From Eledone cirrhosa (lineage: Eukaryota), in assembly GCA_964016885.1 (NCBI GenBank), contig OZ024743.1, forward strand, positions 128,340,001-128,404,000: a stretch of 64,000 nucleotides of DNA, read 5' to 3'. The number at the start of each line of letters is the position of its first letter. Position 1 is the stretch's first letter. The translations under genes and the position numbers were made by a program. The notes below the pieces were generated by a model. The model saw only the letters and a program-made list of their open reading frames with translations, was not told the DNA's origin and did no database searches. Below, piece by piece: positions 3,389-54,499 of the stretch.

Positions 3389-3454
<66 letters not shown>

Positions 3455-3642
3455 ACGTAGGAGTTGTGGTAAGGAACCAGATGGACCATAACGTACCAGA
3501 GTACTGAATACTTAGGGTAGTGGAGTGGGTAATAGGAGAAAGTATGACCCCGACGGCAGAGCTCAAGCCGTTTCGACGGCTATTTCTGGACTAGCCGCCG
3601 AAACGGCTTGAGCTCTGCCGTCGGGGTCATACTTTCTCCTAT
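3455..3642 (-). mobile_element. Short fold-back element in (TA)n containing the 3' half of a hammerhead ribozyme (PLE pseudo-LTR-like)
   Basis: Inverted arms at 3532-3582 and 3592-3642. Read outward from the centre, each arm gives GAAACGGC-ttgagctct-GCCGTC (stem III plus GUC). Homologous to 16903-17095 and flanked by (TA)n on both sides. Confidence 0.7.
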
Positions 3643-3654
3643 ATATATACATAT

Positions 3655-4015
3655 AAAATACACCCCCCGTCCCACCACCACCACCCCCACCCCATCCACA
3701 CCGCCCCGTTCTATGTAAAGTTATGTTGGTGCCACACTATCCAGGCCGAAACAAATGAGATCGTGTAGGTGTCACGACAAAAAAAACACACAGTCCACGC
3801 TGTAATGTGGCCATGTAGGCAACACGGTAAAAACCTCCCAGACCCACACTGTAAATGTGGTTGGTGTTAGGAAGGGCATCCAACTGTAGAAAACCTGCCA
3901 GACAGTCCTATGCGAGCAAGACAATCACTCTTGCCTCAAGTGGGACTACCCCCGTCCAAACCCATGCAAGCGTGGAACACGGACGTTAAACGTTGATGAT
4001 GATGATGATGATGAT
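3655..4015 (+). mobile_element. RTE LINE 3' UTR fragment (5'-truncated insertion) with (GAT)n tail
   Basis: Near-identical to the reverse complement of 56305-56650 and similar to 43580-43918. Confidence 0.88.
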
Positions 4016-4068
4016 AAGTAGGCCGAATTTACTTGCAAACCGCCAGAGATTCGATTTTACTGATTTCC

Positions 4069-4070
<2 letters not shown>

Positions 4071-4129
<59 letters not shown>

Positions 4130-4570
4130 TAGATAGATATATAGATAGATAGATAGAGACAGAGAGAGAGATATCAGTGTGTGTGTGTGTGTGTGTGTTT
4201 GAAGTAATATTTATGTGGAGTTGTGAGTGTACATGGGAGTGAATATGTGAATGTGTGTATGTGTCTGTCCATGTGTATATGTATATATGTCCACATGTGT
4301 GTGCGTATATATGTATATACACACACACACACATATATATACACACACATATATACACACGCACATATACATATATATACAAACACACATATATATATAT
4401 ACACACATATATATATACACACACACACACATATAGACATATATATATGCATACACATATGTATATACACACACATATATACACACACACACACACACAT
4501 ACATATAGACATATATATATATATGCACACACATGCATATATATACATATATATATATGCATGTGTATGT
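4071..4570. repeat. Compound (TA)n/(TAGA)n/(TG)n/(CA)n microsatellite
   Basis: Directly visible. It produces the spurious Y/I/C/V/H/T ORFs. Confidence 0.95.
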
Positions 4571-4747
4571 ACATATCCAGTGTCCCCACTAGACCAAACA
4601 ATTACACAACACAGCAGGGACTGTATATAATGATGCGTAAGATGTAGCCATTTCCCAAGGAAACTCCTTTCAACATAGACCCACTGTGATCAGAAGCGGG
4701 TTAATGGGTCTATTGGACTCCCATATGTCTGCAGTTGCCCACTTTAC

Positions 4748-5915
4748 ACCATCATCATTACAACCATCATCATCATCATCATGACCTCCATTACAACCAT
4801 CATCATCATCATGATCATCGCCATTACAACCATCACCATCATCATGATCACCGCCATTACAACCATCACCATTACAACCATCACCATCATCATGATCACC
4901 GCCTTTACAACCATCACCATCATCATGATCACCGCCATTACAACCATCACCATCATCATGATCACCGCCATTACAACCATCACCATCATCATGATCACCG
5001 CCATTACAACCATCACCATCATCATCGCCATTACAACCATCATCACCATCATGATCATCGCCATTACAACCATCACCATCATCATGATCACCGCCATTAC
5101 AACCATCACCATCATCATGATCACCGCCATTACAACCATCACCATCATCATGATCACCGCCATTACAACCATCACCATCATCATGATCATCGCCATTACA
5201 ACCATCACCATCAACATCATCATCACAATTACAACCATCACCATCATCATGATCACCGCCATTACAACCATCACCATCATCATGATCACCGCCATTACAA
5301 CCATCACCACCATCATGATCACCGCCATTACAACCATCACCACCATCATGATTAACGCCATTATAACCATCACCATCATGATCACCACCATTACAACCGT
5401 CACCATCAACATGATCACCGCCATTACAACCATCACCATCATCATGATCATCGCCATTACAACCATCACCATCATCATGATCACCGCCATTACAACCATC
5501 ACCATCATCATGATCACCGCCATTACAACCATCACCATCATCATGATCATCGCCATTATAACCATCACCATCATCATCACCATTACAACCATCACCATCA
5601 ACATCATCATCGCCATTACAACCATCACCATCACCATGATCACTGCCATTACAACCATCACCATCATCATGATCACCGCCATTACAACCATCATCATCAT
5701 GATCACCGCCATTACAACCATCACCATCATCATCGCCATTACAACCATCACCATCATCATTACAACCATCACCACTACCACAGCCACTGCCATCATCATC
5801 ATCATCATTATCATTATCCCCATCATAACCATCATCCTCACTATCACAGCTGCCACCACCCCTACCATCAATATCACCACTGCCATCAGCACCACCACTA
5901 CCATAATAATCATCA
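4748..5915. repeat. 33-bp minisatellite (GCCATTACAACCATCACCATCATCATGATCACC) with 27- and 30-bp variants, decaying into (CAT/CAC)n
   Basis: About 30 tandem units. Translates as DDGDGCNGGDH on the minus strand or HHHHHDHRHYN on the plus strand. Confidence 0.95.
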
Positions 5916-6541
5916 TAAAAAAAAGCAAATGAGATAATTGTACACCACACAAGTACATTTGCTTTGTAGGGATACATCTCTGTCTGCTTGTCTGTCTGTC
6001 CCCCACCCCCACCCCCTCTCTCATACACACACACACACACACATGTACACACATATTCACAACAACTAAACATGTATACATGTGCATACATAACACACAT
6101 GTTCACACATACACACAGAACATTCATGTGTCCACACATATACATACAACATAGACATGAACATGTGCACACAAACTTAGACTTATATACAAACACATAT
6201 CCAACACACACACAGACACATCTTCAACAAATGCACACACATCCAACACACCCACAACTCTCCAACACACACACACACACACATTTCAAAACTTTCTAAA
6301 CTATGTCCTGTCAGCTTCCACTCACAACAAACAGTCCTCTATCAAAGCCTCACCCTTTCACTCATCACAATAGCAGTGCTGATAGGGGGTGGTGATGGTG
6401 GTGGGGGGGAGCCATATTTCCCACACAGTACACCATAGCATCTTCTTAAAAGAAGAATACATTAGATAACATAGTTTAGACAGATATCAATTTTTAATTT
6501 AGGAAGGCCAGCCAATTTGGGGAAAAGGCGAAGTTGATTAA

Positions 6542-6762
6542 CCCTTTAGCATTTACATTACTCTATATTTACTATTGTATTGTCATGGTAAAGGCTTTAC
6601 CTCACATAATTATTTCACATAATATTGAATCTATGAGAATTTGATATTATTTATTTTGAGAACAATACCTTAACGTCAGTATGAGTGGCTGGTTTTAGTT
6701 GCTTTGAACAGAAAGAGGTGAGAAAATTCTGGCTGGATACAGCTGGTTTAAATGCAAAGGAG
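6542..6762. mobile_element. piggyBac-like MITE
   Basis: TTAA on both flanks, with termini CCCTTTAGCATTTA and TAAATGCAAAGGAG. An inverted sister copy lies at 43930-44150. Confidence 0.75.
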
Positions 6763-7345
6763 TTAAATCAACCTCCAGTACTTGACTAGCTCTTTATTTT
6801 GTCAACTCTGGAAGGATGACAATCAAATTGACCCTGGCAGGATTTGAACTCAGAATAGTTTGTAAAGAGCCAGAATAAATACTGTGAAGGCATTTTTCTG
6901 ACATTCTACCGATTCTGCCAATCCACCACCCTGGTCTAGAGAGATATTGGTTTGAATTTTTAAAAATGTGGGATGGCCATATCCAGAATGTCTTTAATCA
7001 TAGGTTTGATGGATCACATCTGACCTGGGACTAAAGAACTTATTGTCCTACACTCGACTGATATGTATATATATAGTACTTTATCTTATTGACCCAAAAA
7101 AGGATGTAAGGCAAGATTTGAACTCAGAATGTAAAGCATACCTCTAAACTACATTTTTGGCCTTGTGTCAAAGTAAGAAATGAATGATAATATCAATAAT
7201 GATTTCTAATTTAGGCACAATGCCAGCAATTAGTAGGGGAGGAGAAAGTCGATTATATCAACCTCAGTATTTTACTGGTACTTTATTTTATTGATATAGG
7301 AAAGATGAAAGATAAAGTTGACCCCCACCCAAATAATAATAATAA

Positions 7346-7560
7346 TAATTGTTTCTACTTTAGGCACAAGGCCAGCAATTTGTCGGGGAGGGGAAAGTTA
7401 ATTAAATCGACCCAAGTGCATTACTGGGGATTTATTTTACCAATCCCGTAAGGATGAAAGGCAAAGTTAACCTCGGCAGGATTTGAACTCAGAACATAAA
7501 GGGCCATAATTCTATGCTGCAAAGCATGTTGTCTGATGCTCTACCGATACTGCCAAACCA
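7346..7560 (-). mobile_element. tRNA-related SINE, family A (A box, insert, B box GAGTTCAAATCC, (ATT)n tail)
   Basis: The core AGGATGAAAGGCAAAGTTAACCTCGGC...ATTTGAACTCAG recurs in more than 10 places (for example ~2400, 6800, 11100, 15200, 20220, 22030, 23240, 23640, 23860, 33310, 34500, 40070). Confidence 0.75.
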
Positions 7561-9133
7561 ATAATAATGTTGGGATTATTTTATCAATCCTACCATTTGT
7601 TTGCCAAATGTTGCTTAAGCAAAAGGAAAGGGGATATATTTTCATAAGAATTCTCGTTTTCTATGTGATTTTGTAAACTTTCCACACTTAAACCAACTCC
7701 ACGGTGGTCAAAACCTCTGTTATCCACTCTCCTGTTCTGAACTCCTCCTGCTCCGTTTGTTCCCCCATCTCTCTAGTTTTAGCACCCACCCATCCTCTAA
7801 CTCTGTTATACATCTGTGACTAAAAACATCTTTTGTAAACAACTTTAAGTGGGGAAGGGGAACAGAATATTTTTGTGGCACATCTCTTGTGTTGGGCTAC
7901 ATATTGTGTCCATATGGCTGGTATCACTTCACTTTTGGCCCCCTCCATATCTCTCTACTTCTCTCTCTCTCACACACACATACACAGAATTTATGTAATC
8001 GCACACAGCCATAAATCTTACACACACACACACATGCCTTTCTCACTTTATCACATGTATTCACTAACACACAGTTATAATATAATCGCTGGTATTCACA
8101 CAAATATACTCTAACAAAAACATATAAATACATATTATTTCATTCACATTACATACCCACTGATCAATACATCCATATGTACCTCACACGTTAATACACA
8201 ATAACTCATCTACAAAGGTATACACTCTTTTTCTAACATACACACACTAAAGTAAACACACATAGAGGACATATTCTCTAAAACAATACATGCCCCTCCT
8301 CACACTTACATTTATTTATTAATTCTCACTTATGGGGGTTTAGCCACAAGAGGTTTCTTGGGTGTTTTAATGATAGGATGCGCCAATCCTGTCATGGAAA
8401 ACAATGGGCAATGAAGCCTCTTGCTCAAGAACACAACATGCTACCTGGTTCAGGAATCAAGCCCAACGCCCTAACCCCTAGGCCACATACCTTCACATAC
8501 GCACATACTTTCCTTACCCACATATGCCCACACACATACATATTTCCTTTATACACATATCCTCTCACCTATACATATATACTCCCTTTACACACATATT
8601 CTCCCACCACATATGTATCCCCCCCCCCACACACACACTTGCCTTCATCCACACATGTAGATGTACACACCCTATACACCCTCAATACATGCTGTGTTGT
8701 CTTCATCTATCATTACATGGTAAAATTATATATACCAATAAGCAAATTAAATATAGCCAGGGGTGGGAAAAACTAGAAGGGGTAGAGGAATACAGTCTAT
8801 CTTCTTTCATGGGGTGAGGAAGCAGGGACAACAGTAAATACCTGCACATTAGTTAGTGAATATCATCATCATCATCAACGTTTAACATCTATCTTCCACG
8901 CTAGCATGGGTTTAGGTGGCTTTATCTGTGTATGTGTGTGCGATGTATATATATACAGACGTACAGTAGTATGTATATATATTCATACATGCACACATAT
9001 ATATATATATGTACGTATGGGTTTACCGAACATATATTATAATGCTCGGTTTGTTTGTAAACAAACATCCTGAATTAAGCCGTACAGTGTTTAGCAACCA
9101 TCGTTGCCCTTTTGTTTAACACTGACAAAGGAT

Positions 9134-9174
9134 CGATGTACTAGTTTCAAGCTTATTAGCTATCATCAGCACCG
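9134..9174 (-). ncRNA. Type I hammerhead ribozyme, core essentially intact
   Basis: Minus strand reads CGGTG CTGATGA T AGCT-aata-AGCT T GAAAC TA GTA CATCG. Stem I is CGGTG/CATCG (extendable by AAGG/CCTT), stem II is AGCT/AGCT with a U-U pair at its base, stem III is the palindrome ACTAGT, and the triplet is GUA. Confidence 0.82.
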
Positions 9175-9804
9175 TATACCTTCCTGCCAGATGATTGAAC
9201 GTCTGAAAGTATATACTTTCCTTATGCATATTAACGGCTGAGCAGCCTAATTTGCATATCGAGTGAGTTAATCGGCCGGGCGCACCAAAAACGATAAATG
9301 GAAAAAATGAAACGAAATTTCATTTCTCACTCTTAGTACGGCTGTTACTTAAATATAAGTATGTATACGTACATACATATATGTATACAGACGTACAGTA
9401 GTATGTATATATATATACACATACATGCACACATATATATATGTACGTATGGATTTACCGAACATTTATTATAATGCTCGGTTTGTTTGTAAATATATAC
9501 ATACATGCACACATATATATATGTACGTATGGTAAATCCATATGTACATATATATATGTGTGTATATATATACATACTACTGCACATCTGTATACATATA
9601 TGTATGTACGTATACATATTTATATATAAGTAACAGCCGTACTAAGAGTGAGAAATGAAATTTCGTTTCATTTTTTTCCATTTATCGTTTTCGGTGAGCC
9701 CGGCCGATTAACTCACTCGATATGCAAATTAGGCTGCTCAGCCGTTAATATGCATAAGGAAAGTATATACTTTCAGACGTTCAATCATCTGGCAGGAAGG
9801 TATA

Positions 9805-9845
9805 CGGTGTTGATGATAGCTAATAAGCTTGAAACTAGTACATCG
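9805..9845 (+). ncRNA. Type I hammerhead ribozyme, C3U core variant (TTGATGA)
   Basis: Identical to 9134-9174 except for the first core base. Confidence 0.72.
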
Positions 9846-12020
9846 TTCCTTTGTCAGTGTTGAACAAAAGGGCAACGATGGTTGCTAAACACTGTACGGC
9901 TTAATTCGGGATGTTTGTTTACAAACAAACCGAGCTTTATAATAAATGTTCGGTAAATCCATACGTACATATATGTGTGCATGTATGTATATATATATAC
10001 ATACTACTGTACGTCTGTATACTTATATGTATGTACGTATACATACTTATATTTAAGTAACAACCGTACTAAGAGTGAGAAATTAAATTTTGTTTCATTT
10101 TTTTCCATTTATATATATACTAATTTGATTAAAATAAAATTGTTGTTATTTTGTTATTTTGATTGCTAACCTTCTTTCCTTCATTAACCCTTCTGTTATC
10201 ATATTTCCAATGAAAGACTGTAATTCAATTGATCAATGAACAATTTGGAGGGATTTACTAAAATTATTAATTATTTCATTATCAAATGGTATTTATAACA
10301 TGACAACAAGTTTTTATATAAAATTATCTTGGAAAATTTAAATAGGAACCCTATTTTGATTCATAGAATCAGAGCTGGTTTGGGATGGGTTGGTATTAAA
10401 AAGTTTAAACAGTAAGTAAAACAAGAAAAAAAGAATCACCTGAAGTATTTTTTTTCTTCTTTTTACACTTTATTAACAGTTTCCTTTCTCTTTAGGAATA
10501 ACATAAGATAAAATTAATTAGAATTCAAATAAACTAGTGATTATCTGCATCACTAATGAACCAAAATAAACAGTTGAAATACTTTGTTGAAGAAAGATAC
10601 AGATAAAGTTTGTGTGTGGAGAGACATGAAGCTATCTTAATTAACAAATTTTAATGACATATGATAGGAAGGAGCAGTGTGGTTAAGAAATGTCACTTCA
10701 CAATCACCTGGTTACACGTTCAATCCCACTGGCACCCTCTTGGATAAGTGTTTTCTATTTGTAGACTGGAGTTAACTGATGCCTTGTGAATCAAAGTTAA
10801 TAGACAGAAACTGTAAACAAAGATGGAAAGAAGAGGATGGAGGAAGGAAAAAAATAAGGAAAAAGAAAGAAAAAAGGAGAAACAAAGAAAGAAGAAAGAA
10901 AGAGAAAGAAAGGACAGTTATGATACCAGGTCCATTATAGTCATTGTAACATTTCTTATATCCATCTATCCATGATCACTGAACTCCTAGCTTGAACACA
11001 GCTGATTTCTTCCAGAGAAATTGAAGTGGATGGGGGCAAAAAAGAGATAACGGGAGAATCAACCCAGTACTGGACTGATACTTTATTTAAGGACCTCAAA
11101 AGGATGAAAGGCAAAGTTGACGTTAGTGGGATTTTAACTCAGTACATACAGCTGAAATGAATGCTTAACAGCATTCTATCCAAAGTTCTAGTGAATCTGC
11201 CATTTAGCTGTTATACTAAAAGTAAACATGGAGAGAGACCAGGGGTTAGAGTGTTTGACAATCAAACAGAGACAATATAGGTTTTAAGAGAACTTTTCAT
11301 TCTGGCCTACTATATGATTACCTCTCTAGTGCTGGTGCCATGATAAAATGTAGTGTTAGTGTAGGTGCCATGATAAAATGTTCCTAGTGCACTCTGTAAA
11401 GTGATTGGCATTAGGAAGGGCATCCAGCCATAGAAACCATACCAAATATAGAATGTAAAGAACAAGATGGGTTAATCCAGCATGCCTGGTCATTACAGCC
11501 TGTTTAACTCATGCCAGTGAAGAAAGTGGACATAATACGATGATGATGATGATGATGATTCCTTGTATATACACATTACAGAAATCTCTCTGATGTTTTT
11601 CCATCCACCATTACTCCATCACCAAGTTCTTTATATCTTCCACGTTAATCTCTTCTTGTCTATTATGTTTACCACAAGAGATTTCATCTGGGTGGTGTGG
11701 TCCCAGATCCATATTGGCAATGATAACTTTCCCTATACAGACACATTAACAAAGTCTCTGGTGTTTCTCCATCAATGATTGCTCTATCACCAAGTACCTC
11801 ATATCTTTCACTTTTATCTCTTCTTGTCTATAAATTTTACCACAGGAGATTTCATCTAAAATCTATATGTTGAAACTTTCTTTTATCATTTCTTTTATTA
11901 TCTCTTTTCTTTATTTCATCTGTTTTGCCCCCAATTATTATAAATTTTATTATCTATTTATTGTTTTATTTCTTCTTAATTTTTCCCAATCTTAAACACA
12001 CATGTTCTACAAAATGCTCT

Positions 12021-12907
12021 TTTCTTCAATCCTACCATCTCCAAACTGTGACCCATTGAACCCCCCACCCCACTAACTCTCTGTAATATTCTGAAGAAAT
12101 CAATGCGGAAGCCTCTATACAGTTGCTCAATCTATATTTGCTAGAAATAGTAACCAATTCTTCCTCAAATCATATCCTACCATATTAAAAATAGACGGAC
12201 ACATTTGACAACTATATCTATACAAAAAACATGTGGTGATCATGGTTGGATAGCCTTTGATTGCATATTTCTTGATTAGGATTAACCTGGCACTAAACAG
12301 CAATAACAATTTGTAATTGAAATAGTTCTGTGGTTGATAATACCAACAACCTCCTTTCATCAAAAACACATGCACTAATTGTATTTCACTTCAGTTTTAT
12401 TAATCAATTAGACAATTAGTTCAATAGTCAGTTGATTTATTGGTTTGTCAAAGTTCTTTCGTCACAACCCATGACCATAGCACACTACATGCCCTTGTGT
12501 GCTTCCTTTTTGTTGACACATAAATATTGATATCTAATAGAGATATAAGATCACGCATTTTGATGAAAGGAGGTTGTTGGTATTATCAACCACAAAACTA
12601 TTTCAATTACAAATTGTTATTGCTGTTTAGTGCCAGGTTAATCCTAATCAAGAAATATGCGATCAAAGGCTATCCAACCATGATCACCACATGTTTTTGT
12701 ATAGATATAGTTGTCAAATGTGTCCATCTATTTTTAAGATGGTAGGATATGATTTGAGGAAGAATTGGTTACTATTTCTAGCAAATATAGATTGAGCAAC
12801 TGTATAGAGGCTCCCGCATTGATTTCTTCAGAATATTACAGAGAGTTAGTGGTTGGGGGGAGAGAGTTTCAATGGGTCACAGTTTGGAGATGGTAGGATT
12901 GAAGAAA
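12021..12907. repeat. Long inverted repeat: ~345-bp arms (12021-12365 and 12558-12907) with a ~190-bp spacer
   Basis: The arms are near-identical reverse complements, and the same peptide appears in ORFs 12127- and 12527+. Confidence 0.92.
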
Positions 12908-14085
12908 CTATGATCAAGAACTCAATGGAGGTAAGTGATGTCATGACTTCAGATGAATTTCAGACAATGATGTAAAAAGTAATTGGCATCTAGCCATAGA
13001 AAAATTGCCAAACAAAGGCAGTGAGGTCTCTTTAGTTGTTGGTGAGTGTTCAACGATATCAACCAACAGATGACTGATACTAATCTGGTAACACTGTTTG
13101 TGTGTGTTGGACATCCATTAGTTATGATGATGAGTCTTCCAGTTGTTAGACCAATGGAACAGCATACTCATAAAATTAACATGTAAGTTGCTAAGAATTG
13201 CACACACCATGCATCCTTAAAGTTTTTCTCAGGGAGATTCAACATGACACTGGCTCTTTGAATTAAAGATACAACTCATTTTTCCCAGCTATGTAGACTG
13301 GGGCAATATGAAATAAACTGTCTTAGTTAAGGACACAATGCACTGCCAGGAATCAAACTGACGACGTTACGATCATGAACCAAACACCTTAATCACTAGG
13401 TCATGTACCTTCACAATTACACTATTCATCATCATCATTTTCATCATTTAACATCCATTTTCCATGCAACAGTAAAGCAACCAGCTTACAGATCTACTTA
13501 CTGTCTTGACATCCTCTAGAAAATAAATATTTAAAAATTACATAATTAAGAAACAATTTAGTCAGAAGCCTTTTAATCATGTTGATACCAATTTGCCTGA
13601 GACAAAATGTGATACAAAATTCTCCATTTTAAAGTATTTTATTTAAATCAAAAGCTTCTTTCATATATAAGAACTTTCTGTTGTGCCAAACAACACCTTA
13701 ATAATGGAGAAATTAGTTATTTTATTACACTCTTCCAAATTATTGCTTATTTTAAAAAATCAATTGAAACACTTGGACCATTTCATTGGAAATATAGCCA
13801 CAAAAGGGTTAATAGAAAATCATTATGAAGAATGTCCATGGCTTCTGGTCAGCTTAAAGTTGCTAATTCCAGCATGGTGTTGTTATCTTTAGCCATTAAA
13901 CAGTCACTGTAGGCATTAAATAAACATTTGTATTCACTATCAGCCTTGTTCCAAACAGATGATGGCTTTCTATAAATATACAAACAAAGAACAAAAAAAC
14001 CTTGATACTTTTTTTCTCAACTGAACTCTACAAATTTCCTCTCTCTTTTTCATACATATGCTAGTGTGGAAGATGGACGTTAAAC

Positions 14086-14118
<33 letters not shown>

Positions 14119-14341
14119 AATGATGATGATGATGAGGATGGTGATGATGATGTATATGTATATATATATATATATATATAAATTTAAGAATAAACAGGGG
14201 CTGTGTAGTTGCTGGATAAGGTGTACTTATAAAAAGAGGAAAGCAAGAACGGGAGAAAATTTTCCTTCATCAGTTGTCTGCTGGGGGTCTTGGACATTTC
14301 AACATATATATATATATATATATGCCTTTCATAGATAATGA

Positions 14342-14376
<35 letters not shown>

Positions 14377-14450
14377 TAGAAAGTGAGGTTTTTTTTACAA
14401 AATGAAAAATAACCGGTGTCCTACACGAGTGAAAGTATAAAGAAAAAAAG

Positions 14451-14721
14451 ATGAAATCGAAAATGCAACTGGAGTCTTATTTAAAAAAAATATATATATA
14501 TATTTATTTGGTTCCTTTACCGGTTTCGCAGTTCTTCTGCTTTTTAAAAGTAGAGTTGAGATGGAGGGTCTGGTTTTTCTCACATGATGTGAGAAAAACC
14601 AGACCCTCCATCTCAACTCTACTTTTAAAAAGCAGAAGAACTGCGAAACCGGTAAAGGAACCAAATAAATATATATATATATTTTTTTTAAATAAGACTC
14701 CAGTTGCATTTTCGATTTCAT
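14451..14721. repeat. Perfect 271-bp palindrome (135-bp arms, 1-nt spacer at 14586) with a decayed HHR-like motif
   Basis: The centre reads CTCACAT g ATGTGAG. The arms contain TTAAAAA GCAG-aagaa-CTGC GAAAC CG GTA AAGG. Flanked by (TA)n and (TC)n. Confidence 0.92.
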
Positions 14722-14723
14722 TT

Positions 14724-14777
<54 letters not shown>

Positions 14778-15311
14778 CACATACAATGGTGTTGATGATA
14801 TATCAGTGGGTGTGTGTGCATGTATATACATATGTGTGCATGTATATACATATGTGTGTATACAGAAATACAACTATCATGTCTCACCCTTTACCTATAT
14901 AGGAGGTGCTGAAGAACTAGCTAAATGAAATTGTCAAATGGATAATTATTAATAATCTAAATACTAGAAACAATCTGTGTAGAGTTCCAAAAAAAACATG
15001 ATAAGGATCTTATAAGTAGTTTCCCTTTAAAATCAATTATTTCAACAATCAATGATCAACAATTTAAAATTCTAAGTGGATTCTTGAAATAGAAGCAAAT
15101 ATTTAACATTTTATGCACCATAATTAGTTGGTGAACTGGCAGGGTCGTTAGAATGTTGAATAGAGTGCTTTGTGGTATTTGTTCCAACTCTCTGCTCTTT
15201 CAGTTCTAATTCCACTGAGGTAAACTTTACCTTTCATCTATTCAGGTCGATAAAAAAAAGTACCATTCCAGTACTGGAGTCGATTCATTTTTTTCATTTT
15301 TCTTTTTTTTT

Positions 15312-15634
15312 TTTTACGTTCGCTTTTCCCTGCTTGCAAGGGTGGGACGGGAACTGATTCTGGCTTGATTTCTACAGCTGGATGCCCTTCCTAACATCAA
15401 CCTTATTTACAGTGAGTGCTGGGTGCTTTTTTTGCCGTGACACCTCCACGACCACTTTGCAGTGGAATGATATGGACCCCAGTCCCTATCATCTCATTTC
15501 TACAGCTGAGTAAACTGGAGCAATGTGAAATAAAGTGTCTTGCTCAAGGAAACAACACATCACCCGGTCTGAGAATTGAACTCACAACCTTTCGATTGCA
15601 AAGCCAATGCTCTAACCACTAAGCCATGTGCCTC
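15312..15634 (-). mobile_element. tRNA-head SINE, family B, with RTE-derived 3' tail
   Basis: Reverse-complement copy of 47534-47865. Confidence 0.85.
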
Positions 15635-15910
15635 TATATCTCTTTCTCACTGCCTTTTTCTTCCTCTCTATCCTTCTCTGGAAGAATCCTATGAACTCAG
15701 GCCTGGAGAGGAGATAGATTCTGCCAGATTTAAAATGCCCTAAGTAATGTTGTATTTCAATATGGTGCCTCTACGACTCCCTCAGGAGTTATGGCTCCAT
15801 ACTATACCAATTACCTGGGATGAATTAAATGAAGCCCTTCAGTAGAGTAATTGTAACATGTATCTATCTGTCTGTTTCTCTCTCTCTCCCTCTCTAACTA
15901 TCTATCTATC

Positions 15911-16611
15911 TCGAAAAAGATTTGTCCCAGATGCGTGTGCGACGAGGAAACCGTTGCACACGCATTGGTACACTGCTCGGGCATTGCCGATCTGTGGGGC
16001 TATGTCGAACAACTGCTGTCAAGGGTGGGAACGATCCGGTTGACCACCGAGTCTATTGTAATGATCAAGCCGCCTCCCCTCTTCAAAAACGAAGGAGAGG
16101 CGGTGTTTCTGTGCGTAATAGCCATAGCGAAAGAGGTTGTATGGTGGACGCGTCTGAAAGGACTGAGGTTAGACACCTTTCTCTCTGGCCAACAACTGGT
16201 CCGTTTCTTCCGATATCATTTCGGAAGAAGGATCAGGATGGAGAGAGAGGTGCTGCACCCCAGCCGTTTTTATGAAAGATGGGTGAAAGTGGCGAGAATG
16301 GCCCGTGTGAATGGGCCTTCACTCTACATCAGACTATAGGTGAGGAAGATGAAAGATCAAGGGAGCACCCCCTCTCTGTGCTTCTGAGGAGAAGGGTTGC
16401 ACACTTTTTTTCGGGGGTGTGTGCGACCCCCCAAGGCGCCTCCTCCCTATTGAGGATTGTGTTATAAAATTTATTTTGTTATATTTTATTTTATTTTTAT
16501 ACTTTTATATTTTGTTGCTGCCTCCTCCATATTGAGGACGCCTTTGCATGTAAACTCCCCCCTTTGTACTTGTCCCACTTTTGATGCCCTGGTGGCAAAT
16601 AAAAAGAAAGT
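15911..16611 (+). mobile_element. 5'-truncated L1/Tx1-clade LINE (zf-RVT/CCHC C-terminus and 3' UTR) inserted in (TATC)n
   Basis: CPRC..(frameshift)..EETVAHALVHC...LW...AKEVVWWTR...FYERW is a typical Tx1/L1 ORF2 end. It has an AATAAA/A-rich tail and TATCTATCTATCT on both sides. Confidence 0.85.
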
Positions 16612-16870
16612 TATCTATCTATCTGTCTATTCCATCACATTCATACGCTGGCTTTTTTTCTTTTACTCCAATCAGTTTCTTGCTCTTATCACCTTTGATC
16701 ACTCTTTCTTCCTCATCTCTAGGTGAGTGGAAAAAAATGAAAAAGAATTGTAAATATAGGGTAGATATAAATATTATAAATATATAGAGAAGATGAAGTT
16801 AATAGTATAAATATAAAAACATGATAGATATATAAATTGAAGATGAGGTTAATAGTGTATGTGTATACAT

Positions 16871-16902
<32 letters not shown>

Positions 16903-16905
<3 letters not shown>

Positions 16906-17095
16906 GGAACGAGTAGGACCACGACGGCTGAGCTCAAGCCGTTTCGACGGCTAATTCTGGACTAGAATTAGCCGTCGAAATGGCTTGAGCTCAGCCATCG
17001 GGGTCCTACCTCGTTCCTATTACCCACTCTACCCTAAGTATTGAGTACTTTGGTGCGTTATGGTCCATCTGGTTCCTTACCACATTTCCTTCGTT
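16903..17095 (+). mobile_element. Short fold-back element in (TA)n with the 3' half of an HHR (same family as 3455-3642, opposite orientation)
   Basis: Arms at about 16903-16958 and 16964-17020 with loop GGACT. Contains GAAACGGCT-tgagctc-AGCCGTC. The unique tail matches the reverse complement of 3455-3531. Confidence 0.7.
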
Positions 17096-17146
<51 letters not shown>

Positions 17147-18038: not shown

Positions 18039-18322
18039 GGGTTACTGAATTAATTTCGCCCGGTGAACCCCAACAAAAGTTACTCCCGTTGTTTATATCT
18101 GTAAAGTGACTAAAACAAATGTAATATATTTATGGTTAGGGTTAATTCAACCCTAACCCAACCCCTAAGCCTAAAAAATAACCCTAACCCAACCCTAACC
18201 CTAAAAAATATATTACATTTGTTTTAATCTTTAGTCACTTTACGGATATAAACAAGGGGAGAAACTTTGTTTGGGGTTCACTGGGCAAAATTAATTCAGT
18301 GGCGAAATTAATTCTGCACCCC
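18039..18322. mobile_element. Mutator-like MITE with a 9-bp TSD and a central telomere-like (CCCTAA) block
   Basis: TSD TTTCGTCTT at 18030-18038 and 18323-18331. TIRs are GGGTTACTGAATTAATTTCGCC and GGCGAAATTAATTCTGCACCCC, with long internal inverted arms. Confidence 0.82.
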
Positions 18323-45482: not shown

Positions 45483-45598
45483 TATAGTGTGAGGGTGTAT
45501 ATATAACAATACACACGTGTGCTTGGTGGTGGTGGTGTTGAACCCCCCCCCCCCTTCCCACACACGTGTGTATTGTTATATACACACCCTCACACTAT
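45483..45598. repeat. Inverted repeat with ~39-bp arms and a G-rich/C-rich spacer
   Basis: TATAGTGTGAGGGTGT...ACACACGTGTG and its reverse complement, next to (TA)n. Confidence 0.85.
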
Positions 45599-46296
45599 AT
45601 ATATATATATACACACACACACACTCCCTAAAACCATATTCCAATAACAGAATTTCTTTTACAACCCTACTGTTGCCATAGAATTTGTCTCTAGCTTACA
45701 ATTCCCCATCCCCATTTGAACTCTTGACCAGTCAATTAACACAATCAGATATACACACACACATATTTACAGAATATTTCCTTTGCCCCAAAAAAACAAT
45801 TTTGTTCTGTGAAGAAACATACCAACACTACTGCTAGTATCATGACTACACACCTCTCTCTATATATATACACAAGAATTCATTCTCCAGTCCACTTCTG
45901 AAGATGGAAAAAAAACTTACTCCAACACTTAATTTTAAATCTTTAATTTTTAGTTTTTAATTCCTATTAATTCTTTTGTTAAGAGGAATTTTAATAATAC
46001 ATCGAAACTGGTAATACTTTATATATATTATAAAATTTTTTTAAAAAGAAATGTCACTCTCATTTTTTCAATAATGTAACTGTGACGAATCAAAGGAAAA
46101 AAAAACCCCAAAAACAGACCCTAAAATATATTTTTCATGCTATTTCCAACTTTACCTTTTCTCAATATCCACTGTTTTGTATAGAACCTTACTTGCCTTT
46201 TCTAATATGCACACACGCACACACACATATATAATTATATTTGTTTTGCAAGGTTTTTTATATGAAATCGTGTGTCAAAACAAATATTGTTATACT

Positions 46297-46558
46297 TGGG
46301 GAGGGTCATATTGTTGTAATAATATTGCCAGAAATAATAACAGAACACACTCACTGCTTGGTTGGTTTTCGCGTCTGTATCTTTTATATCTCCACAGTTA
46401 ATTCATTTGGTCCTCAATGTTTATCATTGACTGACCAACGGTCAAAAATAAAAGTTACAAATATAATATAAAAGATACAGAAGCGAAAACCAAACAAACA
46501 GTGAGTGTGTTCTGTTATTATTTCTGGCAATATTATTACAACAATATGACCCTCCCCA
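46297..46558. mobile_element. MITE-like or fold-back element with ~92-bp inverted arms
   Basis: TGGGGAGGGTCATATTG...CTTTTATAT and ATATAAAAG...CAATATGACCCTCCCCA. Confidence 0.75.
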
Positions 46559-49998: not shown

Positions 49999-50018
49999 TG
50001 TATATATATATATATATA

Positions 50019-50376
50019 TCATCATCACCGTTTTACGGCCATTCTTCCACGCTAGCATGGGTTAGACGGATTGTCCTGTTGTGAGCAGTGTCCGGTCCGC
50101 TGACCTTGCCTTGCTCATACGGGAAATGATTCTGGCTTGATTTCTACAGCTGGATGCCCTTCCTAACACCAACCTCATTTACAGTGAGTGCTGGGTGCTT
50201 TTTTTTCATGGCGCCTACACGTCCTCTTTACAGTGTAGGCTGGGTGCTTTTTTGCTGTGGCACCTCCACAACCACTTTGCAGTGGAATGATAGGGACAAC
50301 ACATCACCCGGTCCGAGAATTGAACTCACAACGTTTCGATTAAAAGCCCAATGATCTAACCACTAAGCCATGTGCC
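50019..50376 (-). mobile_element. tRNA-head SINE, family B head with a different RTE-derived tail
   Basis: Head as in 47534. The tail CCGTCTAACCCATGCTAGCGTGGAA matches the LINE ends at ~2045-2106 and ~25600-25640. Confidence 0.82.
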
Positions 50377-50377
50377 T

Positions 50378-52597
<2,220 letters not shown>

Positions 52598-53205
52598 GGT
52601 GGCTGCCAACTCGTTTTCGAGTACGGCCACTACTTTATATCCATGTAGGAGAACCCCTACCGATGCGCTGAACGAATGTGACTTTTTAGTCCAGCCAGCG
52701 ACTTGAAAACTCTGGCACAAAGACTACACTTGTGACCATTATTGACACATAGTGCAGGGCCCATGGTACCATGTGATGACAAGTGCAGAGAGATCTCCAG
52801 ATATAAAGCAATGCCTGTGCTGTGAAGCTTTTATAGTGAGCAAAGGCACTGCACAAAGCCAGTCCCACTCTCTTAACCAAGATGATATTTACCAAAAAGA
52901 AGAACAAGTCAACATCATTGGATACCATCAGGGTTGCAGGTGTTATATCAGAGTTTTCCTTCTCCTAGAATTCTGCCTTGACAAAGGCTAAGGGGTCATC
53001 TCTCCCGGTGATTTTGGATGGCTATTGAGTCTTAAGAGCTCCCTTGCCCTTTGACAGGTTTTGTTTTTAGTCCTGCAGGATGTCCAAAGTCACCCTCCTC
53101 ACCAAGAAACCTTGGTGGGGTTGCCAGTTTAGTCGCCAACGACCCGACCATGAGACAGGTTGTACTGGGATACATGTTACCAGTAGCACCAACTGGTGAC
53201 CTGAC
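52598..53205 (-). mobile_element. Probable RTE LINE 5' UTR-derived segment embedded in (TA)n, with an HDV-like ribozyme candidate at its 5' end
   Basis: The minus strand has CTAGGAGAAGGAAAACTCTGA, which from memory resembles RTE 5' UTRs. The 5' end has partial HDV-fold elements (CCAGT/ACTGG, GG-hairpin-CTAA). No ORF was recognised. Confidence 0.45.
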
Positions 53206-53206
53206 A

Positions 53207-53238
<32 letters not shown>

Positions 53239-54499
53239 CATATATATACATATATATATACATATATATATATATATACATATATATACATATATATACA
53301 TATATATACATATATATATATACATATATATACATATATATACACATATATATATATACATATATATACATATATATACACATATATATACATATATATA
53401 CATATATATACATATATATATACATATATATACATATATATATACATATATATACATATATATATACATATATATACATATATATATACATATATATATA
53501 TACATATATATGTATATATATACATATACATATACATATATATATACATATATATATTTGGAGGAGGTTATAGTTCACTTGAAGCATTGTGTAATGAGGT
53601 ATAAACGTTTGAATATGTATAATAAAGCCAAAACAATGCAGGTATGGACATAGAAAAAAGAATGCAATTGCAAAAGATATTGTTGACAAATCGTCTTTTA
53701 CCTTAGATTTATTTAAATGTCCTTAATTTTTGAGATAATATCTCTTCTTCAGAGGGAAATAAAAGTCTCAAACCAGCCTTCTAAATATCTTGCGAAGCCA
53801 TGCTGACAGGAAATAGTATAGAGTATCTGTTCTATCTCTCATGTCAAAGAGTTAAAATTAGATGGATAAAGAGTAGTCTCCCTTTAAAAGGGATTTGTTT
53901 AGGGTTTTTTTTTGTATATATACATGCCTGTTTAAGTGTGTGGGAGAATGCATGAAGGTGTAAGTATGTGAGTGTGTGTGTGTGAGTGTGAGAAGATAAG
54001 TCTATTCGTAAATGTGGGGGATAGGTGTTATCTGGTGTTAGAACTGGTTTTGTGTGTGTATGTGTGAGAGAGAATAAGTGGAGGTGTAAGCGTGTGTGTG
54101 TGTGGGGTGTGTAAATATGGGGCTAGAAGCCCTATCAGATTATAAATTGGGTGTTGAGTTCTAGTCTATTATTGACTGGTGGTTGTGTTTTATCTATAAT
54201 TAGTGCTTCCTTAATTCTAAGATTGCCGAGGTTTCTTTCCTTAGTTTCTATCCTAACTGTTACGGTTTTGTCGGTGTTTTTGCATTTAACTAGGTGTTTC
54301 TTAAATGAGGAAGCGTTAGTATTGAGGTGTTCTTTTATTCTTATGTGGAGTGGTCTGGTGGTGCTACCTACGTAGAAGTTGTTGCATTTGTCACACTCTA
54401 GTCTGTATACGACGTAAGCCTGGTGTCATAGGTCTGTGTCGTTGATGGGACAGTTGGCTAGTCTGCAGCAGTTGTCATGTCTGGTGGAGTGTCTTCGGA

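What the first reader, a model, noticed from the sequence alone, without database searches (positions are those of the whole stretch)
3455..17095. Two independent hairpin insertions of one family fold back inside hammerhead stem II
Seen: 3455-3642 and 16903-17095 are homologous ~190-bp elements in (TA)n. Read outward from the hairpin centre, both arms give TAGCCGTC GAAA CGGC(T)-loop-(A)GCCG TC, which is the 3' strand of stem II, the GAAA core, stem III with a GAGCTC palindromic loop and the GUC triplet. The CUGAnGA half is absent and is replaced by the inverted copy. The turn-round points differ (loop GTCCAGAAA versus AGTCC), so the events look independent. Inference: the cDNA snaps back on the ribozyme's own stem II and self-primes second-strand synthesis, which would explain how PLE-type inverted ends form.
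Basis: partly seen in the sequence, partly recalled or inferred. Interest (0 to 1): 0.75.

Follow-up and report, generated by a model that had tools for sequence, protein, structure and literature searches.

The report
Twin-primed Penelope retrotransposon hairpin stubs
These two hairpins are real, stub-sized insertions of a Penelope-like jumping gene with over 16,000 such hairpins in this genome; they likely form when two separately started DNA copies run off the front end of the element's RNA and are joined head to head, not when one copy folds back on the ribozyme, which would explain how this class builds its mirror-image ends.

Summary
Both hairpins are real and were formed independently. 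They are the shortest insertions of an intact Hydra-clade Penelope-like element (719-aa RT plus GIY-YIG protein) that targets (TA)n. The parent carries a type I hammerhead fold with a UUGAnAA (U3:A8) core, not CUGAnGA (2,687 copies).

Stem II snap-back is refuted: its product has 1 pattern match, not genuine, against 16,276 hairpins. In 30 of 67 paired copies, element 2 among such cases, the short arm holds bases the tail arm lacks; in 11 the arms do not overlap. Inner ends pile up at -4..+9 around a TATA/Inr-like start in loop II, also in copies with no inversion (552 joins versus 4 at -13). A minor class starts exactly at the predicted ribozyme cut.

Best model: twin priming at two fixed RT starts (+61, +141), run-off at the RNA 5' end, microhomology joining. 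No RNA data were available, so the start site is inferred; 0 of 17 long copies stop there. This scan reported the same reading before on other DNA (37 notes, at least 14 genomes, including this one).

The parts
3455..3593 (-). Element 1 tail-bearing arm (T arm): parent positions -1 to about +140 (+1 = A of the Inr-like TTTAGTC); holds the 3' half of the hammerhead and the tail
   Evidence: matches parent unit 1-144 at 87.5%
3592..3642 (+). Element 1 short arm (S arm): parent +11 to +61, ends at CCTAT joined to (TA)n
3592..3593 (.). Element 1 head-to-head junction, 2-nt TA microhomology; T arm reaches 12 nt further than S arm
   Evidence: parent sequence
3455..3531 (-). Element 1 tail (about 77 nt), the stretch between the two fixed outer ends; in the parent it runs on into the 5' UTR of the ORF
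3622..3623 (+). Predicted hammerhead cut site (GUC|G, parent +41/+42) in the S arm; the 5' half of the ribozyme is missing here, so the stub would not self-cleave in cis
   Evidence: inference
16903..16964 (-). Element 2 short arm (S arm): parent -1 to +61; reaches 6 nt further upstream than the T arm
16964..17095 (+). Element 2 tail-bearing arm (T arm): parent +6 to +141
   Evidence: matches parent unit 6-144 at 92%
16964..16964 (.). Element 2 junction, 1-nt microhomology; geometry that fold-back of the tail-bearing cDNA cannot give
17021..17095 (+). Element 2 tail
3402..3454 (.). (TA)n target flank of element 1 (no target-site duplication can be read in it)
17095..17143 (.). (TA)n target flank of element 2

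Best explanation
The hairpins are the shortest insertions of a Hydra-clade Penelope-like retrotransposon, and they likely form by twin priming: the element's enzyme would cut both strands of a (TA)n target, start one cDNA at RNA position +141 and one at +61, let both run off the RNA's 5' end, and the two cDNA ends would then be joined head to head through short microhomologies or small insertions. Shown: parent element, two fixed outer ends, tail-plus-short pairing, junction spread, sharp upstream limit of the inner ends, second peak at +42. Inferred: that +1 is a Pol II start (TATTTAAA at -29, TT(T/C)AGTC Inr), that +42 marks RNAs cut by the U3:A8 hammerhead, that both arms are first-strand cDNAs, and that end joining closes the centre. 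The turn falls in loop II because the RNA likely begins there; stem II pairing plays no part.
For: Parent: intact ORF, partial tandem and inverted tail-bearing copy at L148. Census of the first 100 tail ends on C1: 71 have an inverted partner, 67 ending near +61 and 4 at +141. The S arm reaches further in 30 of 67, the T arm in 24, equal 13; in 11 the arms do not overlap. Of 167 inner ends, 109 lie in -12..+12, 0 in -13..-60, 9 further up. Solo arms joined to (TA)n: 552 at -1/+1, 151 at +11, 4 at -13. Read depth in an independent run rises about 15-fold at +1 and falls about 300-fold after +141 (contigs). Arms begun further downstream also end there (5 of 13), and L287 jumps from -3 back to +254. 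Two-template cases: L132 and L237 have arms of different subfamilies; L035 and L036 join an arm head to head with another PLE family. +42 peak: 22 of 49 distinct places versus 7 at +43 and 1 at +41 (hand tally). In vitro a PLE protein nicks and extends both strands and starts at two sites bounding the tail (PMC11167929, main text read). TATA plus Inr in a pLTR has a precedent (PMC3846280, passages).
Against: No RNA data, so +1 and +42 are not shown as RNA ends. 0 of 17 long copies (14 insertions) that carry 1.5 kb or more of the ORF side stop at +1; 16 read through it, so a single linear RNA class starting at +1 cannot explain long copies. The cap-derived G test is inconclusive (7 of 100 versus 1 of 100, p 0.065, two of the 7 adjacent). 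Arms share a subfamily in 82 of 90 hairpins (17% at random), which fold-back also predicts. Later deletions in palindromes could mimic non-overlapping arms. The -13 control pattern covers only the AATT subfamilies, about half of the 552. The pattern favours late starts, and two +42 pairs are neighbours (20 of 47 if merged). PMC11167929 found no RNA-seq reads ending at the HHR cut in Anolis.
Confidence: 0.68

Rival explanations
1. One reading: the cDNA snaps back on the hammerhead's own stem II and self-primes the second strand.
For: Breakpoints do cluster in loop II and the 3' strand of stem II; the parent has a real stem II; arms mostly share a source.
Against: The product (antisense loop II plus AAATAGCCG followed by TCGAAAC) has 1 match, a chimera with an ORF fragment, against 16,276 hairpins. 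No inner end of 167 reaches the 5' strand of stem II. The hot spot is present without inversion.
Confidence: 0.03
2. One cDNA runs from the tail to the RNA 5' end, folds back on a 1-4 nt microhomology and copies itself to +61; later deletions in the palindrome centre scramble the junction.
For: Element 1 fits this geometry. Arms share a subfamily in 82 of 90. The T arm is longer in 24 of 67. Self-priming was proposed in PMC3846280.
Against: The S arm is longer in 30 of 67 and 11 have no overlap. It needs second-strand synthesis to stop at exactly +61 in nearly every case, an end also seen on long and solo copies. Mixed-subfamily and mixed-family arms exist. Four T+T arm pairs exist.
Confidence: 0.14
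3. Twin priming is right, but the inner ends mark an early RT stall at the AU-rich inner helix of stem II in a longer RNA, not the RNA's 5' end.
For: The inner helix 3' strand spans about -3..+4. Long copies pass +1 without a scar. Ends spread over -4..+9.
Against: RT would pass the GC-rich stems I, III and II first. Nothing ends between -13 and -60. 0 of 17 long copies stall there. TATA and Inr motifs sit at textbook spacing. L287 jumps at -3.
Confidence: 0.12
4. An ordinary MITE with one fixed hairpin, mobilised as DNA.
For: Short, palindromic, tens of thousands of copies in TA targets.
Against: Junctions differ from copy to copy. The arms are the terminal repeat of an RT-encoding element. 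The ends are unequal.
Confidence: 0.01

Closest known systems
Hydra clade of C-terminal EN+ Penelope-like elements, including Hydra-1_Obim (PMC8557442, section 11 and supplement rows read)
   Same: Single short ORF with RT then GIY-YIG; RW(K/R), DKT, CxCX5C linker, CxxC and CxH in EN; (TA)n targets; hammerhead in the terminal repeat. By eye the N-terminus resembles Hydra-1_Obim.
   Different: Hammerhead core UUGAnAA with a long stem II (Hydra-1_Obim has ctgaagag and an 8-nt loop 2); unit 3,542 bp against 'generally <3 kb'; RWR for RWK. The arm 11-mer was not found in that supplement (line breaks may hide it).
Canonical EN+ PLE insertion: partial tandem pLTRs, adjacent inverted 5'-truncated copy, one-sided 30-40 bp tail (PMC3846280, PMC8557442 Fig. 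2 text, PMC2377424)
   Same: Head-to-head inversion, tail at one end only, TATA/Inr-like motifs in the pLTR, AT-rich targets.
   Different: Tail is 77-80 nt; most insertions are 190-bp stubs; junction geometry contradicts the self-priming proposed in PMC3846280.
PAc (Anolis Poseidon) in vitro target-primed reverse transcription (PMC11167929)
   Same: Both target strands nicked and extended; two internal RT starts bounding the tail, near the pLTR-ORF junction.
   Different: That paper does not treat inverted insertions; it saw no reads at the HHR cut, whereas a +42 class exists here.
L1 twin priming (Ostertag and Kazazian 2001; recalled, paper not held)
   Same: Two target-primed cDNAs of opposite orientation joined by microhomology.
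   Different: In L1 the second start is variable and the arms do not overlap; here both starts are fixed, the arms usually overlap, and both end at one RNA position.
Non-LTR retrozymes and U3-A8 hammerheads of Schistosoma Cercyon PLEs (PMC4209133 parts 1-2 of 4; bioRxiv 10.64898/2026.07.22.740005 part 1 of 5)
   Same: Type I hammerhead from a pLTR, palindromic loop III, U3-A8 core variant.
   Different: The stubs are inverted, not tandem, and hold only half a ribozyme; the parent's stem III has 5-6 bp.

Membership tests
Hydra-clade PLE | Single ORF, RT followed by C-terminal GIY-YIG EN | tested here: met
   719 aa, YRDD at 348, AYIGLT at 606; Atlas look-alikes at 0.97-0.99, some clusters with GIY-YIG or RVT_1; Pfam gave no hit
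Hydra-clade PLE | RWK motif present, GxKF/Y absent | tested here: met
   RWR at 37 (conservative variant); no GxK[FY]
Hydra-clade PLE | DKG changed to DKT | tested here: met
   DKT at 117
Hydra-clade PLE | CxCX5C linker instead of CX2-5CxxC; CxxC and CxH in EN | tested here: met
   CNCPDRSIC at 572, CNLC at 670, CKH at 698, no CX2-5CxxC
Hydra-clade PLE | Insertion into (TA)n | tested here: met
Hydra-clade PLE | Placement in the Hydra clade of an RT tree | not tested
   no reference proteins were held as tool sequences; by-eye likeness only
Type I hammerhead ribozyme (parent pLTR) | Core CUGAnGA, or a compensatory 3:8 pair, 5' of stem II | tested here: met
   UUGAnAA (U3:A8) in 97 of the first 100 of 2,687 matches. 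Literal CUGAnGA is not met. Parents of element 2's subfamily read CUGAGAA, a C3/A8 mismatch
Type I hammerhead ribozyme (parent pLTR) | Stems I-III around the core, GAAA, NUH | tested here: inconclusive
   L148 folds as the hammerhead in its minimum-energy structure (z -0.73); L143 and L144 prefer an alternative fold; no Rfam match
Type I hammerhead ribozyme (parent pLTR) | Self-cleavage | not testable with these tools
   indirect only: inner ends peak at +42
Type I hammerhead ribozyme (the two stubs) | Complete core | tested here: not met
   5' half absent in both elements
MITE | One fixed structure with equal terminal inverted repeats shared by all copies | tested here: not met
Non-LTR retrozyme | Head-to-tail tandem units each with a whole hammerhead | tested here: not met
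   stubs are head-to-head half ribozymes

The most novel reading that the evidence does not exclude
The genome records the whole PLE cycle. Linear RNAs, capped at a promoter hidden inside the hammerhead's stem II or cut by the U3:A8 ribozyme, give twin run-off stubs. Unit-length circles made by that ribozyme (or repeated end-to-end jumps) give the seamless partial and multi-unit tandems that never stop at +1. The promoter placement would also switch the ribozyme off in the mRNA's 5' copy.
Probability: 0.3. Interest if true: 0.8.

Novelty: new variant of a known kind. Interest (0 to 1): 0.5.

Why it matters
How Penelope-like elements form tandem and inverted ends, and what their hammerheads do, are named as open questions in PMC8557442 and PMC11167929. 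This family offers tens of thousands of independent insertion records. They reject the published self-priming idea for this family, tie the in vitro findings (both strands extended, two RT starts) to the genomic structure, and name exact RNA positions (+1, +42, +61, +141) that CAGE, RACE or a reconstituted reaction can test. The two copies themselves are ordinary.

Tried and rejected
Rfam on the whole window gave 300 matches; the 150 listed were microRNA models on microsatellites. Rfam on the parent pLTR gave none. A CTGAnGA parent search gave 62 matches with scattered spacing; none of the 30 read forms the core. My early idea that junctions centre on a CTAG palindrome was dropped: the parent reads TT(T/C)AGTCC. 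A 3' splice site at TTTAG or TCCAG was considered; no shared upstream exon appeared in the loci read. RNA evidence: no RNA holder listed; only contigs were laid. Pfam and PDB sequence searches of the ORF were blank. The cap-G test was inconclusive. Target-site duplications cannot be read in (TA)n. (first census, anchor-biased, some over-extension by chance ATTC matches) was replaced; a few ends at -4 or -7 there are still over-extended, so only bins are used. Literature searches listed no paper that, by title or abstract start, applies twin priming or 5' run-off to PLE inversions; most subscription journals are not covered, and the supplements of PMC11167929 and PMC3846280 were not read.
Full report
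1. Observation. Both elements are present as described: 3455-3642 and 16903-17095, opposite orientation, 83% identical, each a long hairpin with a one-sided extension of about 77 nt inside (TA)n. The genome is 3.0 Gb. A 24-mer of the arm has 52,348 exact matches, tail ends joined to TA number 29,932, and tight hairpins 16,276; reversed controls give 0.

2. The parent. A search for CTGAnGA upstream gave 62 scattered matches, none of the 30 read forming a core. Unselected copies showed the real upstream sequence. It leads to an intact element at L148: a 719-aa ORF with RT and C-terminal GIY-YIG, in a partial tandem with an inverted tail-bearing copy. Its motifs (RWR, DKT, CxCX5C, CxxC, CxH) fit the Hydra clade as defined in PMC8557442 (section 11 read). 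I took the Hydra lead from earlier notes and checked the motifs; no tree was built. The tandem unit is 3,542 bp.

3. The hammerhead. The parent reads ACCCC-UUGAnAA-stem II-GAAA-stem III-GUC|GGGGU; 2,687 copies match, 97 of the first 100 listed with U3. A U3-A8 core is described for Schistosoma PLEs (PMC4209133, parts 1-2 of 4 read). L148 folds as a type I hammerhead at minimum energy, though not better than shuffles; L143 and L144 prefer an alternative fold. Rfam does not match it. Parents of element 2's subfamily have CUGAGAA, a mismatch. With +1 at the A of TT(T/C)AGTC, the core lies at -43..-37, the 5' strand of stem II at -36..-28, a TATTTAAA at -29, and the cut at +41/+42.

4. Snap-back on stem II fails. 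The product would hold antisense loop II, then AAATAGCCG, then TCGAAAC. It has one match, a chimera with an ORF fragment. I then took the first 100 tail ends on C1, all of them analysed. 71 have an inverted partner: 67 end near +61 and 4 at +141. Of 167 inner ends, 109 lie in -12..+12, 31 in +13..+61, 18 beyond +61, none in -13..-60 and 9 further up. The short arm reaches further in 30 of 67, the tail arm in 24, and 13 are equal; 11 have no overlap at all. A second strand copied from the tail-bearing cDNA cannot hold bases that cDNA lacks. Element 2 is such a case (S arm to -1, T arm to +6); element 1 is not.

5. The hot spot belongs to the template. Solo arms joined straight to (TA)n number 552 at -1/+1, 151 at +11 and 4 at -13, all with the same TA microhomology (the last pattern covers only the AATT subfamilies). 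Contig depth in an independent run steps up about 15-fold at +1 and down about 300-fold after +141. Of 13 shorter arms that extend past the tail into the 5' UTR, 5 start in the same zone, and L287 repeats -3..+254 in tandem. TATA and Inr motifs at this spacing suggest a Pol II start; a pLTR start and such motifs are reported for other PLEs (PMC2377424 and PMC3846280, passages). A cap-derived G is only hinted at (7 of 100 versus 1 of 100, p 0.065). No RNA run was available.

6. A second class at the ribozyme cut. Earlier notes suggested this and I tested it. Six of 31 census ends in +13..+61 fall in +41..+43 (p 0.01). Among 49 distinct places in the first 100 rows, 22 start at +42, 7 at +43, 1 at +41 and at most 5 at any other position (hand tally). 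The pattern favours late starts and two pairs are neighbours, but the excess over +43 remains. This suggests that some templates had been cleaved in vivo.

7. One or two templates. Over all 121 hairpins held, including score-selected loci, the arms share a subfamily signature in 82 of the 90 that could be typed, against 17% for random pairs. Most insertions therefore use one RNA or sibling RNAs. Of the 8 discordant cases 6 differ by one base; L132 and L237 differ by more. L035 and L036 join an arm head to head with the 3' end of another PLE family.

8. Result against the simple model. None of 17 long copies (14 insertions) stops at +1; 16 read through it and one ends at +68. One locus holds four whole units in a row plus flanking partial ones, without scars. 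Long copies need a circular or tandem template, or an efficient jump from the 5' end to the 3' repeat. Circles were proposed in PMC4209133.

9. Mechanism. Shown: parent, fixed outer ends, pairing of a tail arm with a short arm, junction geometry, two inner-end peaks. Known from PMC11167929 (main text read): a PLE protein nicks and extends both strands and starts at two internal sites bounding the tail. Inferred: twin priming, run-off at a capped or ribozyme-cut 5' end, end joining. Confidence 0.68; fold-back plus later deletion 0.14; structural stall 0.12; stem II snap-back 0.03.

10. Novelty. The insertion architecture and the self-priming idea are in print (PMC3846280, PMC8557442). My searches listed no paper applying twin priming with 5' run-off to PLEs; L1 twin priming is recalled, not read. 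I set down this reading before opening earlier notes. Those notes hold the same reading 37 times in at least 14 genomes, including what looks like this family in this genome; they are unchecked and are not counted as support. The two copies are ordinary, but the family makes an open question testable: interest 0.5.

Noticed in passing
L279-L281 (G000:C1:91472500-91495000): One insertion with four whole seamless 3,542-bp units plus partial ones, then over 100 copies of a 55-bp ORF segment at the inversion junction, then the short-end arm: looks like rolling-circle or repeated jumping, with RT slippage at the joint.
   Followed up: partly
L287:1123-1700: Tandem copies of parent -3..+254 behind an inverted short arm; suggests RT jumping from the RNA 5' end back to +254.
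   Followed up: partly
L035, L036, L031, L054, L042: Arms of this family joined to pieces of other repeat families; in L035 and L036 the partner is another PLE (29-43% identity to this endonuclease) in inverted orientation.
   Followed up: partly
L069, L150, L238: Parents of element 2's subfamily have a C3/A8 mismatch in the hammerhead core (CUGAGAA) in several copies; possibly an inactive ribozyme in a subfamily that still spread.
   Followed up: no
L143, L144 versus L148: Subfamilies differ by linked changes (GCTCGG with GCCGTC; GATCGG with GCTGTC) that shift the predicted fold between an alternative hairpin and the hammerhead.
   Followed up: partly
window 14441-14730: A 290-bp near-perfect palindrome (99%) of another family with (TA)n inside both ends and a GCGAAAC motif in each arm; may be another fold-back insertion.
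   Followed up: no
window 8946-10027, 18044-18300, 45483-45599, 46297-46558: Further inverted repeats of other families; 18044-18300 has TAACCC-like repeats at its centre.
   Followed up: no
window 3700-3780: Element 1's right flank holds another repeat with a GGCCGAAAC motif; similar sequence flanks L023.
   Followed up: no
window about 50000-64000: Long low-GC microsatellite arrays with strong negative GC skew.
   Followed up: no
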